A program made the translations under genes and the position numbers. From Escherichia coli (lineage in GTDB: Bacteria; Pseudomonadota; Gammaproteobacteria; Enterobacterales; Enterobacteriaceae): DNA of 64,000 bases. Below the pieces are notes generated by a model. The model worked only from the letters and a program-made list of their open reading frames with translations, did not search any database and was not told where the DNA came from. Shown piece by piece: positions 7,036-21,862 of the stretch; position 1 is the first letter of the stretch; each line of letters opens with the position of its first letter. The stretch lies in assembly GCF_029227855.1 (NCBI RefSeq), contig NZ_CP074356.1; one strand, given 5' to 3'.

Positions 7036-7125
7036 GGAGAGATGCCGGAGCGGCTGAACGGACCGGTCTCGAAAACCGGAGTAGGGGCAACTCTACCGGG
7101 GGTTCAAATCCCCCTCTCTCCGCCA
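7036..7125 (+). tRNA. serU: tRNA-Ser (anticodon CGA); prophage attachment target
   Basis: GGAGAGATGCCGGAGCGGCTGAACGGACCGGTCTCGAAAACCGG...CCCCCTCTCTCCGCCA, 90 nt with long variable arm; its 3' 62 nt are repeated at 63384..63445. Confidence 0.9.
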
Positions 7126-11549: not shown

Positions 11550-11602
11550 GGGCGGCAGAGCAGTCACGGAGTAAAACTGATACCGCCAAACGTCACCAGA
11601 AA
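11550..11602 (-). ncRNA. dicF: DicF small regulatory RNA (53 nt) with 3' hairpin and U-tract
   Basis: Minus strand reads TTTCTGGTGACGTTTGGCGGTATCAGTTTTACTCCGTGACTGCTCTGCCGCCC followed by TTTTT; matches recalled DicF. Confidence 0.7.
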
Positions 11603-16533: not shown

Positions 16534-16964
16534 TGGTCTGTTGACTGGAAATATGTACCGAAAAAAGAGGATTGTAACGACAGGCCGAACTATCAAATTC
16601 AGGCCTTATTCACTGCCTCACCAGCCCTGGTTACATCAGAAGAACTGGTTAAAGCTGTGCACTTTTATGAACAACTAAAACGCGAAAATCCACCAACATC
16701 CGGCAACTAGATTAATGGGTTAACTATGTCGGTTAAACGACCAGCCAACTGAAAAAGCGGAAACCTGATTATAGGTTGCCAGATAAGGCAATAAGCTACC
16801 TGGCGCGGAACGGACTGATAAGTATGGGGAATGTTTTACGATGAACCTTTAGACTAAAGAGTTTGTAACGCTATGTAAGTGATTTTTTCTAGTTTAGATA
16901 TTTATATGTCCGGCCAAATTGAGGTGTGTTTAAATGTAATTGCACATTGATTGTAGGAGGAATA

Positions 16965-17144
16965 ATGAAAAACGCATTGCAGTTTTTGTTTGTTGCGTTC
17001 TGGTTGTTCGTATCATGTATGCCCATCATCTTCACAGCAAGGTATATGGAAAAAGTTGATGTTTTGATATTAATATTTGGATATATAAATGCCCTTTTTT
17101 TAGGGGTGTTCATGGCGGTCATGTGCATTGAATACTGGCGGTAA
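16965..17144 (+). CDS. Small hydrophobic membrane protein (59 aa), AT-rich moron
   Basis: MKNALQFLFVAFWLFVSCMPIIFTARYMEK...; AGGAGG 4 nt upstream of the ATG. Confidence 0.4.
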   Translation: MKNALQFLFVAFWLFVSCMPIIFTARYMEKVDVLILIFGYINALFLGVFMAVMCIEYWR

Positions 17145-17401
17145 ATACAGCGAACTCCATTGGTTTAGTTGGATATTTATTGTGCTGGACAAAAACGGTT
17201 TGCGGGGAAATCTTAGTTAAGTAGAATGACTGCGGGTGCTTGAGGCTATCTGCCTCGGGCATGAACACCAACGGCAGATAGAGAAAAGCCCCAGGTAACA
17301 TTACGCGTCCTGCAAGACGTTTAACATTAATCTGAGGCCATATCTATGCGACACATAGAGATTAGCCTCTTACGGACCGAAAGGTCAAGGAGAAGCAGGC
17401 T

Positions 17402-17557
17402 ATGAAGCAGCAAAAGGCGATGTTAATCGCCCTGATCGTCATCTGTTTAACCGTCATAGTGACGGCACTGGTAACGAGGAAAGACCTCTGCGAGGTACGA
17501 ATCCGAACCGGCCAGACGGAGGTCGCTGTCTTCACAGTTTACGAACCTGAGGAGTAA
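17402..17557 (+). CDS. hokD: Hok/Gef-family type I toxin (51 aa), HokD/RelF-like
   Basis: MKQQKAMLIALIVICLTVIVTALVTRKDLCEVRIRTGQTEVAVFTVYEPEE; single TM helix plus conserved Cys pattern. Confidence 0.75.
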   Translation: MKQQKAMLIALIVICLTVIVTALVTRKDLCEVRIRTGQTEVAVFTVYEPEE

Positions 17558-17625
17558 GAGACCCGGCGAGGGAGAAATCCCTCGCCACCTCTGATGTGTC
17601 AGGCATCCTCAATGCACCCGCACTT

Positions 17626-17649
17626 AACCCGCTTCGGCGGGTTTATTTT
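17626..17649 (+). terminator. Rho-independent terminator after hok
   Basis: AACCCGCTTCGGCGGGTT hairpin followed by TTATTTT. Confidence 0.5.
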
Positions 17650-18015
17650 ATCTGTGAATATTTTTATAAAAATAATGCCCACACACAGCATAAAACAAAA
17701 AGTATCACAGATAAAAAAGGAGCGTAATGTGCAGATTTGTTGTTTTCCATATTTACTCACTTTAACATAATCAATATTGATATGGTTGTTGTTTCGGTGG
17801 TTTCAAACGAGATGTTATGATGATCTGGTAAAATTGCATAACATTAAAATTTAATTTATCTAATCGCTTTTAATAATAAGCGTTGTGTTTATCCCAACAA
17901 TCTGTTGTTTGACTTTTATTCCATTAATGTAGGGGCTTTACACTGGAACCAGTTTATTTATACTTTATACGCCAGCCTGAACAACTGGCACCTGCTGCGC
18001 CAGCAGAGACAACCG

Positions 18016-18294
18016 ATGGCGCACGATACCAAATTACACAATTCTGATGATTCTGCCGTCTTTGCCAGCAGGTGCGGACGGCGTTTTCATGCATTCAAAT
18101 CGGACTGGTTCCAGCATCCACCATGCACTGAAGAGCAGGCTGAATGGATAATTCAGTGTTACCGCAGGCGCGGATACGAGGTTAAAAAAGCCCTTAGCCT
18201 CGACTACCGTCACTGGATAATCTCAGTCAGATTGCCTTACTCCGAACGCCCACCGCGTCCATCCCGCACATTCCAGCAACGCATCTGGAGGTAA
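18016..18294 (+). CDS. Hypothetical prophage protein (Rem-like position), 92 aa
   Basis: MAHDTKLHNSDDSAVFASRCGRRFHAFKSDWFQHPPC...; between hok and the DUF968 gene as in Qin. Confidence 0.45.
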   Translation: MAHDTKLHNSDDSAVFASRCGRRFHAFKSDWFQHPPCTEEQAEWIIQCYRRRGYEVKKALSLDYRHWIISVRLPYSERPPRPSRTFQQRIWR

Positions 18295-18295
18295 C

Positions 18296-19345
18296 GTGCG
18301 GGTATTACTTCGACCTGTTCTGGTACCGGAACTCGGGCTGGTGATCGTTAAGCCGGGCCGTGAATCCATGCCGGTATTCCACAATACCCGGTTACTGGTG
18401 GAGCCGGAACCGAAAAGCATGCGTAATCTGCCGTCCGGGGTCGTTCCTGCCGCTCGCCAGCCGCTGGTGGAAGACAAAACATTGCTGCCGTTTTTCAGTA
18501 ACGCACGGGTGATTCGTGCTGCTGGTGGTGCTGGTGCATTGTCTGACTGGCTGTTGCGCCATATTAAATCCTGCCAGTGGCCACACGGCGATTATCATCA
18601 CAGCGAAACCGTCATTCACCGTTATGGTACCGGCGCAATGGTGTTGTGCTGGCACTGCGACAACCAGCTGCGTGACCAGACATCCGAATCACTCGAGCAA
18701 GTTGCTCATCAAAACCTGTCAGCATGGATGATTGACGTCATCGGTCACGCAATAAGCGGTACGCAGGAGCGTGAATTATCTCTGGCTGAATTATCCTGGT
18801 GGGCGGTCCGCAATCAGGTGGCGGACGCGCTACCGGAAGCGGTATTACGTCGTTCGCTGGGGTTGCGTGCGGAAAAAATCCGCTCAATGTACCGTGAAAG
18901 CGACATCGTACCGGGAGAGCAGACCGCCACCAGCATACTGAAACAGCGCACAAAAAATCTTGCGCCGCTGCCTCACGCCCACCAGCAACAGAACCCACCA
19001 CAGGAAAAGACGGTGGTCAGCATTGCCGTTGATCCTGAGTCTCCGGAATCTTTCATGAAACGACCTAAACGTCGCCGCTGGGTTAACGAGAAATACACAC
19101 GCTGGGTGAAGACACAGCCGTGTGCGTGTTGTGGTAAGCCAGCCGACGATCCCCATCACCTGATTGGTCATGGTCAGGGCGGAATGGGGACAAAATCTCA
19201 CGATATTTTCACGCTACCGCTGTGTCGGGAGCATCACAACGAGCTTCATGCGGATCCGCTGGCGTTCGAAGAAAAGCATGGTTCTCAGGTTGATTTAATT
19301 TTTCGTTTTCTTGATCACGCCTTTGCAACTGGCGTGCTTGGGTAA
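18296..19345 (+). CDS. DUF968-family phage protein (YdfU-like), 349 aa
   Basis: GTG start with GGAGG RBS; C-terminal Cys/His cluster (CACCGKPADDPHHLIGHG...CREHHNELH); typical neighbour of rusA and Q. Confidence 0.75.
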   Translation: MRVLLRPVLVPELGLVIVKPGRESMPVFHNTRLLVEPEPKSMRNLPSGVVPAARQPLVEDKTLLPFFSNARVIRAAGGAGALSDWLLRHIKSCQWPHGDYHHSETVIHRYGTGAMVLCWHCDNQLRDQTSESLEQVAHQNLSAWMIDVIGHAISGTQERELSLAELSWWAVRNQVADALPEAVLRRSLGLRAEKIRSMYRESDIVPGEQTATSILKQRTKNLAPLPHAHQQQNPPQEKTVVSIAVDPESPESFMKRPKRRRWVNEKYTRWVKTQPCACCGKPADDPHHLIGHGQGGMGTKSHDIFTLPLCREHHNELHADPLAFEEKHGSQVDLIFRFLDHAFATGVLG

Positions 19346-20692: not shown

Positions 20693-20769
20693 CGGTCCTT
20701 TAGCTCAGTGGTGAGAGCGAGCGACTCATAATCGCCAGGTCGCTGGTTCAAATCCAGCAAGGGCCACCA
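20693..20769 (+). tRNA. Phage-borne tRNA with CAU anticodon (Met or lysidine-Ile2 type)
   Basis: GGTCCTTTAGCTCAGTGGTGAGAGCGAGCGACTCATAATCGCC...GGGCCACCA; cloverleaf folds. Confidence 0.85.
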
Positions 20770-20874
20770 TCACAAACCGCCATTAGCTTATCAGGAAGAG
20801 CAGACGACACGATAACAGGGGTGTTGGTGCGGGGGGGGGGCGGGTCCCCGATGGCGGTCCATTATCGGTATTCA

Positions 20875-20951
20875 GCGTTGTTAGCTCAGCCGGACAGAGC
20901 AATTGCCTTCTAAGCAATCGGTCACTGGTTCGAATCCAGTACAGCGCGCCA
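20875..20951 (+). tRNA. Phage-borne tRNA-Arg (anticodon UCU)
   Basis: GCGTTGTTAGCTCAGCCGGACAGAGCAATTGCCTTCTAAGCAATCGGTCACTGGTTCGAATCCAGTACAGCGCGCCA. Confidence 0.85.
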
Positions 20952-21415: not shown

Positions 21416-21862
21416 ATACATATCTGGATTATCACCTGTTACGGTAAAAAGTGATTGCTTACTGTTTTTGTGAATGGCATTGCAGCAGCCGGATAATGTC
21501 AGTGCTGGCTGACGGTGTGCTGGTGGCGGGTGTGGTGGTTGTTGCTTTCCCGTTGCTGAAAAAGAAAACGCCAGACTGTTAGCCGGGTATCAGTTAGCGG
21601 GAGAAATTTTTAAATACTTCACAATTCAGGCGGTTGACTGTTGTCTGGTTTGCGGGGAGTTTGTTAAAAGAAACTGGCATGGTGAATCCCCCTGTGCGGA
21701 GGGGCAATCAGCGAGTAGGTATATGGGATAATCGCGGATTCAGGTGCTGGTACTGAATTCACCGGGAGGCACCCGGCACCATGCAATGGCACATAGCGCC
21801 ACTCTCCAGCCCCTCTCCGGAGGGGCTGTTTATATTGATTTTGTCAGATGTGAGTAAACTCC

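What the first reader, a model, noticed from the sequence alone, without database searches (positions are those of the whole stretch)
17250..17650. hok-type type I toxin locus in the prophage without the relBE pair that accompanies hokD in Qin
A Hok/Gef-family toxin ORF with downstream terminator is present, but the upstream region holds only AT-rich sequence and a small membrane ORF. The locus may retain a sok antisense RNA and mok leader that I cannot define by eye.
Basis: partly seen in the sequence, partly recalled or inferred. Interest (0 to 1): 0.35.

Follow-up and report, generated by a model that had tools for sequence, protein, structure and literature searches.

The report
Complete hok/mok/sok toxin-antitoxin cassette
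This is an ordinary, already known kind of prophage "host-killing" toxin cassette (hokD/hokW type) that still has its antisense antitoxin RNA, leader ORF and mRNA fold-back elements, which the E. coli K-12 copy lost when relBE replaced them.

Summary
Window 17402-17557 (+) encodes a 51-aa Hok/Gef toxin (Pfam PF01848, 78.6 bits) that matches K-12 HokD at 50 of 51 residues. A terminator follows at 17626-17643. No relB or relE homologue occurs anywhere in the 64-kb window.

The suggestion that sok and mok may be retained is also supported. The 170 nt upstream of hok are the conserved hok mRNA leader, not filler (Rfam RF01794, 100.8 bits, 17234-17404). By alignment with phage 933W (annotated mokW/hokW/sokW), the Sok gene maps to 17352->17284 (-). 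Its promoter is homologous to that of plasmid R1. The predicted mRNA (17234-17650) is highly structured (z = -8.3), and its 5' end pairs with 17607-17619, the tac-fbi lock that the same method recovers in R1.

K-12 homology starts only at 17388, so K-12 lacks all of these elements.

One wrinkle is the 19-codon mok ORF, whose TGA overlaps the hok ATG. This recurrent allele is found in 15 of 110 phage loci and in ST131 strain JJ1886. Published R1 mutagenesis predicts it suffices for coupling.

The closest tested relative is hokW-sokW of prophage Sp5. The locus is already known and of low interest.

The parts
17187..17644 (+). Conserved hok/mok/sok cassette as a whole, the block shared between otherwise different prophage contexts
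   Evidence: The flanks diverge outside about 17187 and about 17644.
17222..17227 (+). Putative hok promoter -10 box TAGAAT. A tentative -35 box TTGCGG lies at 17200-17205.
   Evidence: It is conserved as GTTAAGTAGAAT in 933W, the Rac-like phage and P1-like loci and ends 7 nt before the predicted +1. The -35 region varies between alleles. The generic promoter scan did not report this site.
17234..17650 (+). Full-length mok-hok mRNA (predicted, about 417 nt)
   Evidence: The 5' end is set by homology to the R1 hok mRNA +1 and to the start of the Rfam model. The 3' end is set by the terminator. MFE is -170.1 kcal/mol, z = -8.3 against shuffles.
17234..17245 (+). tac (translational activator) element at the mRNA 5' end
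   Evidence: It pairs with 17607-17619 in both the MFE and the centroid structure. After 3' truncation it refolds locally or onto ucb. It is invariant in 81 related loci.
17285..17292 (+). ucb / anti-SD box AAAGCCCC
   Evidence: It aligns with R1 AUAGCCCC. It pairs with the mok SD in the predicted fold and can pair with tac in a structure 5.6 kcal/mol above the MFE.
17334..17337 (+). mok Shine-Dalgarno sequence GAGG
   Evidence: It lies 8 nt upstream of the mok ATG, is invariant (TGAGGC) across the alignment including R1, and is covered by Sok.
17346..17405 (+). mok leader ORF, 19 codons (MRHIEISLLRTERSRRSRL) plus a TGA that overlaps the hok ATG (ATGA)
   Evidence: The ATG aligns with the annotated mokW and mok starts. 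The offset to the hok ATG is 56 nt, against 57 in 933W and 58 in R1 and the Rac-like phage.
17284..17352 (-). sok antisense RNA gene, about 69-73 nt, with its 3' U-tract running to about 17280
   Evidence: The 933W sokW annotation (L002 2608-2678) maps to exactly these coordinates. The RNA folds as a 5' single-stranded tail, a long hairpin and a U-tract at -24 kcal/mol; 0 of 200 shuffles fold as well.
17359..17388 (-). sok promoter: -35 TTGACC (17388-17383), 18-nt spacer, -10 TAATCT (17364-17359)
   Evidence: It aligns with the R1 sok promoter TTGCGC-17-TATCCT and the 933W promoter TTGCCT-17-TAACCT. The motif GTAAGAGGCTA is conserved across all three. The generic scan did not detect it.
17387..17392 (+). 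hok Shine-Dalgarno sequence AAGGAG
   Evidence: It lies 9 nt upstream of the hok ATG and is identical in R1 and all relatives.
17402..17557 (+). hok toxin ORF, 51 aa, HokD type
   Evidence: It matches K-12 HokD at 50 of 51 residues and R1 Hok at 43% identity.
17607..17619 (+). fbi (fold-back inhibitory) element
   Evidence: The 12-bp duplex with tac has an energy of -21.5 kcal/mol; 2 of 300 shuffles reach that value. Pairing holds in 98.3% of cells across 82 sequences.
17626..17650 (+). Intrinsic terminator of the hok mRNA
   Evidence: Six of its seven pairs show compensatory changes among relatives (helix 20).

Best explanation
The locus is a complete, self-contained hok/mok/sok type I toxin-antitoxin cassette of the hokD/hokW subfamily. 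It sits in the early-right (nin-like) region of a Qin/Rac-like lambdoid prophage, between the replication genes and the DUF968-RusA-Q genes, and is co-oriented with them.

Inferred mechanism, by homology to R1 hok/sok and Sp5 hokW-sokW:
1. A weak promoter (-10 at 17222-17227) makes a stable mRNA of about 417 nt.
2. The mRNA's 5' tac element (17234-17245) is locked to the 3' fbi element (17607-17619), and the mok SD is held by the ucb box. The full-length RNA is therefore neither translated nor bound by Sok.
3. Slow 3' trimming removes fbi. The 5' end refolds and exposes the mok translation start.
4. The unstable Sok RNA is transcribed convergently from 17352 to about 17284 and covers the mok SD and AUG. 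It pairs with the exposed region, and the duplex is cleaved by RNase III.
5. When Sok is depleted, ribosomes translate the 19-codon mok. They terminate at the UGA that overlaps the hok AUG and initiate hok there. Hok then damages the inner membrane.

Shown here: all the sequence elements, their homology, and the predicted folds. Inferred: transcription, processing, RNase III dependence, toxicity and biological role. The role is likely help with lysis on induction, as for hokW-sokW, or prophage retention or phage exclusion.
For: - Toxin: Pfam HOK_GEF 78.6 bits.
- Leader: Rfam RF01794 100.8 bits against a gathering score of 59, covering 17234-17404.
- Homology: about 91% nucleotide identity to 933W/Sp5 hokW-sokW, where mokW, hokW and sokW are annotated. 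The sokW and mokW coordinates map to 17284-17352 and 17346.
- Sok promoter: aligned with the R1 sok promoter.
- Sok fold: 5' tail, hairpin and U-tract.
- mRNA fold: z = -8.3, with tac-fbi present in both the MFE and the centroid structure. As a positive control, the same method recovers the known tac-fbi pairing of R1, nt 1-10 with 382-391.
- Conservation: across 82 sequences the structure is 95.7% paired, 28 pairs show compensatory changes, and 0 of 500 shuffles reach these values.
- Experiment on a relative: hokW-sokW is a functional type I TA that depends on RNase III and Hfq and aids lysis after mitomycin C (PMC8621323).
- mok length: in R1, mok translation is needed only up to the hok SD/start (PMC9841398), so a 19-codon mok should suffice.
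- Allele integrity: hok is intact in all 11 distinct copies of this allele. Its CDS has 2 synonymous changes and 1 non-synonymous change.
Against: - There is no expression data for this locus.
- The generic sigma-70 scan found neither promoter. The -35 box of the hok promoter is not conserved.
- tac and fbi are nearly invariant within the subfamily, so the 12 pairs show no double changes here (helix 1). The duplex energy alone is only moderately unusual, reached by 2 of 300 shuffles.
- Per the introduction of bioRxiv 10.1101/2025.08.07.668861, the chromosomal hok loci tested earlier (hokA, hokB, hokC) did not mediate post-segregational killing.
- The 19-codon mok allele has never been tested.
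- NCBIfam Hok models score below their curated cut-offs.
Confidence: 0.88

Rival explanations
1. The cassette is structurally complete but functionally dead. The 2-nt deletion that shortens mok to 19 codons, or other changes, uncouples hok translation, so the locus is a hitch-hiking relic like the K-12 chromosomal hok loci.
For: The mok frame differs from R1 (offset 58) and from the majority type (offset 57). Per the introduction of bioRxiv 10.1101/2025.08.07.668861, chromosomal hok loci tested earlier were inactive in post-segregational killing. In R1, five premature mok stops upstream of the hok start abolish toxicity.
Against: The stop here lies at the hok start codon itself (AUGA), after the ribosome has crossed the hok SD. 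The R1 data say that this is the part of mok translation that matters. The allele is widespread: 15 of 110 phage loci, strain JJ1886, and about 826 RefSeq records at 95% identity or more. In every copy hok, tac, fbi and the sok promoter are intact, and the few CDS changes are mostly synonymous.
Confidence: 0.12
2. hok is expressed mainly as part of the long phage early-right (PR-type) transcript rather than from its own promoter, as K-12 hokD is in the relBEF operon. On induction, read-through transcription overrides or collides with sok and produces Hok as a lysis accessory. The autonomous tac/fbi circuit would then be secondary.
For: hok is co-oriented with the upstream cro-like, replication and nin-like genes and with the downstream Q gene. 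The -35 box of the hok promoter is weak and variable. In Sp5, mitomycin C lowers sokW RNA and raises HokW in a RecA-dependent way.
Against: The cassette keeps its own conserved -10 box, its +1-proximal tac element and its terminator in many unrelated flanking contexts, including P1-like plasmids. That argues for autonomy. Nothing here measures transcription. This reading complements the main one rather than excluding it.
Confidence: 0.3

Closest known systems
hokW-mokW-sokW of Stx2 phage 933W / Sakai prophage Sp5 (Takada et al. 2021, PMC8621323; GenBank AF125520 annotation)
   Same: The same subfamily, at about 91% nucleotide identity over the cassette. The same order of tac, ucb, mok SD/ATG, convergent sok, hok and fbi. 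The Hok proteins are nearly identical except at the C-terminal tail.
   Different: mokW is in frame with hokW (offset 57, a 70-aa extended Hok), whereas here mok has 19 codons and ends at the hok ATG. The sok promoter is TTGCCT-17-TAACCT in 933W and TTGACC-18-TAATCT here. 933W lacks the CCCGCTTCGGCGGG terminator sequence. The 933W copy lies near the right end of the phage genome, whereas this one lies in the nin-like region upstream of Q.
hokD (relF) of the E. coli K-12 Qin prophage, in the relB-relE-hokD operon
   Same: 98.4% nucleotide identity over 17388-17644, HokD identical at 50 of 51 residues, and the same neighbourhood downstream (DUF968 ydfU, Q).
   Different: K-12 homology begins 14 nt upstream of the hok ATG. 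The promoter, tac, ucb, mok, the Sok target and the sok -10 box are replaced by relBE. K-12 also has rem downstream, which is absent here. The window therefore shows the intact form of the cassette from which the K-12 copy is derived.
hok/mok/sok of plasmid R1 (parB), the paradigm type I toxin-antitoxin system
   Same: Every named element has an aligned counterpart. The tac-fbi pairing is predicted in both by the same method. The hok SD is identical, the sok promoter core is conserved, and the first 19 mok codons lie upstream of the hok ATG in both.
   Different: Hok is only 43% identical. R1 mok has 70 codons in the +1 frame (offset 58). R1 has a longer 5' hairpin insert. R1 is a plasmid maintenance system, whereas this locus is in a prophage.

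Membership tests
[quoted passage not shown] | Small Hok/Gef-family membrane toxin ORF | tested here: met
   Pfam PF01848 scores 78.6 bits against a cut-off of 22. PHROG 251 matches at E = 2.8e-32.
[quoted passage not shown] | Conserved hok mRNA leader (Rfam RF01794 'sok' model) | tested here: met
   100.8 bits against a gathering score of 59, over the full model 1-157, at 17234-17404 (+). The model lies on the mRNA strand, not the Sok strand.
[quoted passage not shown] | Cis-encoded convergent antisense RNA (Sok), with its own promoter and terminator, covering the mok SD and start codon | tested here: met
   Shown at the sequence level only. The 933W sokW annotation maps to 17284-17352 (-). 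The promoter is homologous to the R1 and 933W sok promoters. The RNA folds as a hairpin plus U-tract. Expression was not tested.
[quoted passage not shown] | mok leader ORF with its own SD, whose translation runs across the hok SD | tested here: met
   The SD GAGG lies at 17334-17337 and the ATG at 17346. The ORF has 19 codons, and its TGA overlaps the hok ATG. It is a shortened variant of the 68-70-codon mok.
[quoted passage not shown] | Long-range 5'-3' tac-fbi pairing and the ucb/anti-SD box | tested here: met
   A 12-bp pairing between 17234-17245 and 17607-17619 appears in the MFE and the centroid structure. An R1 control confirms the method. Pairing holds in 98.3% of cells but without double changes. 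This is a prediction, not structure probing.
[quoted passage not shown] | Toxicity of Hok, neutralisation by Sok, RNase III cleavage and 3' processing | not testable with these tools
   Shown experimentally only for relatives: R1 and hokW-sokW (PMC8621323).
K-12-type hokD (relBEF operon arrangement) | hokD immediately downstream of relB-relE, with no leader of its own | tested here: not met
   The window has no relB or relE. A full leader is present instead.
NCBIfam NF007279 (Hok family toxin, subfamily model) | Score at or above the curated cut-off | tested here: not met
   45.1 bits against a cut-off of 73. RefSeq nevertheless names the identical protein HokD.

The most novel reading that the evidence does not exclude
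The 19-codon mok of this allele may be a naturally occurring minimal mok. It arises from a 2-nt deletion, and its UGA overlaps the hok AUG. It would couple hok translation by termination-reinitiation. Closely related cassettes (over 90% identical) carry mok in all three frame relations to hok (offsets 56, 57 and 58). This would mean that the Mok/MokW proteins annotated in databases are not selected gene products at all, and that only ribosome transit across the hok SD is selected.
Probability: 0.55. Interest if true: 0.3.

Novelty: already known. Interest (0 to 1): 0.12.

Why it matters
It matters little for discovery. hok/sok cassettes in lambdoid prophages have been annotated since the 933W genome, and a member of this subfamily was characterised in 2021.

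It is useful for annotation. RefSeq marks only 'hokD' here, so the antitoxin RNA, the leader ORF and the regulatory RNA elements go unannotated. The name hokD also suggests the crippled K-12 arrangement, whereas this copy is the intact form.

The frame polymorphism of mok is a small natural confirmation of the idea that it is translation of mok, not the Mok peptide, that matters.

Tried and rejected
- The generic sigma-70 promoter scan found neither the hok nor the sok promoter. Both assignments therefore rest on homology to R1 and 933W, not on consensus strength.
- The same scan did not report the Sok terminator, whose stem is imperfect.
- Covariation could not test tac-fbi within the subfamily, because both elements are nearly invariant.
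- A blastn 'distant' search of plasmids with the window DNA did not list any R1-type hok/sok among the records shown, only hokD-type copies on P1-like and other plasmids. R1-type DNA was fetched through a protein search instead.
- A first attempt to count the short-mok allele in E. coli genomes was confounded by partial K-12-type matches. It was repeated with a query upstream of the K-12 breakpoint.
- A literature search for earlier descriptions of mok frame variation found nothing useful.
- The small membrane ORF upstream was considered as part of the system and rejected. It lies in an indel cassette that is absent from most hok loci.
- relBE, rem, ydfV and flxA were searched for and not found.

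Full report
**What is there**

Window 17402-17557 (+) is a 51-aa ORF, MKQQKAMLIALIVICLTVIVTALVTRKDLCEVRIRTGQTEVAVFTVYEPEE. It matches Pfam HOK_GEF at 78.6 bits against a cut-off of 22 and PHROG 251 'MokW-like host killing' at E = 2.8e-32. It differs from K-12 HokD at one residue, A46V, and is 43% identical to R1 Hok. A terminator-like hairpin lies at 17626-17643, followed by a T-run. It is the only hok copy in the window.

**Context**

The window is colinear at 99.8-99.9% with E. coli WP8-S18-ESBL-07 (NZ_AP022261), apart from an IS21-family insertion in that strain's DUF968 gene. The RefSeq annotation there shows a Qin/Rac-like lambdoid prophage:
- a frameshifted integrase next to tRNA-Ser(cga)
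- exonuclease, dicB, ydfABC and DicF
- repressor-like and cro-like genes, YdaT and DUF977
- small nin-like genes, then hokD
- DUF968, RusA, Q, two tRNAs, holin and lysozyme

hok is co-oriented with the early-right genes. RefSeq annotates only 'hokD' at this locus and no RNA features.

**relBE is absent**

tblastn with K-12 RelB, RelE, Rem, YdfV and FlxA gives nothing better than E = 0.5 anywhere in the 64 kb.

K-12 Qin DNA aligns to the window only over 17388-17644 (98.4%) and again from 17999. The K-12 copy therefore shares just 14 nt upstream of the hok ATG. Everything further upstream in K-12 is relE and relB.

**The upstream 170 nt are the hok leader, not filler**

Rfam RF01794 ('sok') matches 17234-17404 (+) over its full length at 100.8 bits against a gathering score of 59, E = 1.2e-21. 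From the alignment, this model runs from the hok mRNA 5' end to the hok AUG. It therefore lies on the mRNA strand, and Sok is antisense to its middle part.

The region is about 91% identical to the hokW locus of phage 933W, where mokW, hokW and sokW are annotated. It is 93% identical to a Rac-like phage with mok and hok annotated.

Mapping through the alignment puts sokW at window 17284-17352 (-), the mokW start at 17346 and the hokW start at 17402.

**Element-by-element anatomy**

All elements are aligned with an R1-type hok/sok fetched from an IncFII plasmid.

| Element | Coordinates | Note |
|---|---|---|
| hok promoter -10, TAGAAT | 17222-17227 | Conserved as GTTAAGTAGAAT; the -35 box is weak and variable |
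| Predicted mRNA +1 | about 17234 | GGGUGCUUGAGG; R1 has GGCGCUUGAGG |
| ucb / anti-SD, AAAGCCCC | 17285-17292 | R1 has AUAGCCCC |
| mok SD, GAGG | 17334-17337 | |
| mok ATG | 17346 | |
| sok promoter (minus strand) | 17359-17388 | TTGACC-18-TAATCT; R1 has TTGCGC-17-TATCCT and 933W has TTGCCT-17-TAACCT, with a shared GTAAGAGGCTA core |
| Sok RNA +1 | 17352 | |
| hok SD, AAGGAG | 17387-17392 | |
| hok ORF | 17402-17557 | |
| fbi | 17607-17619 | |
| Terminator | 17626-17650 | |

The generic promoter scan found neither promoter, so both assignments rest on homology.

**Folding**

The predicted 417-nt mRNA has an MFE of -170.1 kcal/mol, against -123.4 ± 5.6 for shuffles (z = -8.3). Its first 12 nt pair with 17607-17619 in both the MFE and the centroid structure.

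As a positive control, the same procedure on the R1-type sequence pairs nt 1-10 with 382-391, which is the known tac-fbi interaction.

Removing the 3' end at 17605 makes the 5' end refold into a local hairpin, which corresponds to the described metastable hairpin. A tac/ucb conformation lies 5.6 kcal/mol above the MFE, against 1.6 in R1.

The tac-fbi duplex alone has an energy of -21.5 kcal/mol, which 2 of 300 shuffles reach.

Across 81 distinct related loci plus R1, the window's structure is 95.7% paired. 28 pairs show compensatory changes, against 6.4 expected, and 0 of 500 shuffles reach these values. The tac-fbi helix itself is 98.3% paired but invariant, so covariation says nothing about it within this subfamily.

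Sok (17352->17280, minus strand) folds as a roughly 13-nt 5' tail, a long hairpin and a U-tract at -24 kcal/mol. None of 200 shuffles folds as well.

**The mok wrinkle**

In the window the mok ATG lies 56 nt upstream of the hok ATG. This gives a 19-codon ORF (MRHIEISLLRTERSRRSRL) whose TGA overlaps the hok ATG (ATGA).

Of the stretches returned by an exact 30-mer scan of IMG/VR, 110 loci (89 distinct sequences) gave complete extracts, and the offsets were distributed as follows:

| mok-to-hok offset | Form | Distinct sequences |
|---|---|---|
| 57 nt | mok in frame with hok, a 70-aa extended Hok as annotated for mokW | 60, plus 2 with hok cut short by a premature stop and the P1-like group by manual count |
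| 56 nt | window type, 19 codons | 11 (15 loci) |
| 58 nt | R1-like, +1 frame | 4 |
| none | K-12-type truncations lacking the leader | 7 |

The window type also occurs in ST131 strain JJ1886. About 826 RefSeq complete-genome records are at least 95% identical over a 78-nt query that spans the deletion.

Within the 11 distinct copies of this allele, hok is always intact. Its CDS has two synonymous changes and one non-synonymous change, and the segment from the mok ATG to the hok ATG has a single variable site.

R1 saturation mutagenesis showed that mok translation is needed up to the hok SD/start and not beyond it (PMC9841398). A 19-codon mok ending at the hok AUG is therefore expected to work, but this has not been tested.

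**Mechanism and role**

By homology, the locus should work like R1 hok/sok:
1. The full-length mRNA is inert.
2. Slow 3' trimming activates it.
3. Sok pairs with the mok translation initiation region, and RNase III cleaves the duplex.
4. When Sok is depleted, mok is translated, then hok, and Hok damages the membrane.

The nearest tested relative is hokW-sokW of Sp5. [quoted passage not shown] After mitomycin C treatment sokW RNA falls and HokW rises, and deleting the locus halves phage release (PMC8621323).

A recent survey finds hok genes enriched in prophages (bioRxiv 10.1101/2025.08.07.668861).

Whether this copy serves lysis, prophage retention or phage exclusion is unknown. Because it lies in the early-right operon, read-through transcription on induction is a plausible extra input, but this is speculative.

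**Verdict**

The element is a known kind, in a known subfamily, and is present in thousands of E. coli genomes. Its main value is corrective annotation. Interest is low.

Noticed in passing
window 16845-17186 (ORF 16965-17144, +): A 59-aa strongly hydrophobic ORF (MKNALQFLFVAFWLFVSCMPIIFTARYMEKVDVLILIFGYINALFLGVFMAVMCIEYWR) sits in an AT-rich indel cassette of about 340 bp, just upstream of the hok cassette. The cassette is present, with the ORF intact at 91-100% amino-acid identity, in 19 of about 125 fetched loci. It is absent from many others that share both flanks. The ORF has no Pfam, PHROG or NCBIfam match and is not annotated in RefSeq. It may be a small membrane protein or a moron, but it is not part of hok/sok.
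   Followed up: partly
window 17346-17405 and loci L002-L124: Closely related hokD/hokW cassettes carry mok in all three frame relations to hok, with offsets of 56, 57 and 58 nt. In the commonest form, 'Mok' is simply Hok with a 19-aa N-terminal extension.
   Followed up: yes
window 17540-17543: The Tyr47 codon TAC followed by G (UACG) lies in a weak hairpin, CAG-UUUACGAAC-CUG. This is the TadA A-to-I editing motif reported for hokB. According to bioRxiv 10.1101/2025.08.07.668861 it is also edited in hokC, hokD and hokE, and editing would recode Tyr to Cys.
   Followed up: partly
window 17234-17404: The Rfam family RF01794, named 'sok antitoxin', matches the hok mRNA strand from the mRNA +1 to the hok AUG. 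It does not match the strand that encodes Sok, so strand calls from this model need to be inverted or reinterpreted.
   Followed up: partly
window 17651-18015: A spacer of about 350 bp (28% GC over 17651-17900) lies where K-12 Qin carries rem. It has a terminator-like hairpin at 17865-17882 and a good promoter-like site at 17937-17964 (TTTACA-16-TATACT), ahead of a PHROG 1212 ORF of unknown function at 18016-18294.
   Followed up: no
window 18296-19345 versus L001 10147-13325: The DUF968 (ydfU-like) gene is intact in the window. In the otherwise 99.8-99.9% identical strain WP8-S18-ESBL-07 it is split by an IS21-family element (ISEc62). The window therefore comes from a different strain.
   Followed up: partly
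window 7036-7125, 11550-11601, 20694-20951, 21648-21837: Other RNA genes occur in the prophage: tRNA-Ser(cga) next to the integrase pseudogene (a likely attachment site); DicF (-); tRNA-Met(cat), annotated as tRNA-Ile in RefSeq, and tRNA-Arg(tct) just downstream of Q; and an STnc100 sRNA match at 132 bits.
   Followed up: no
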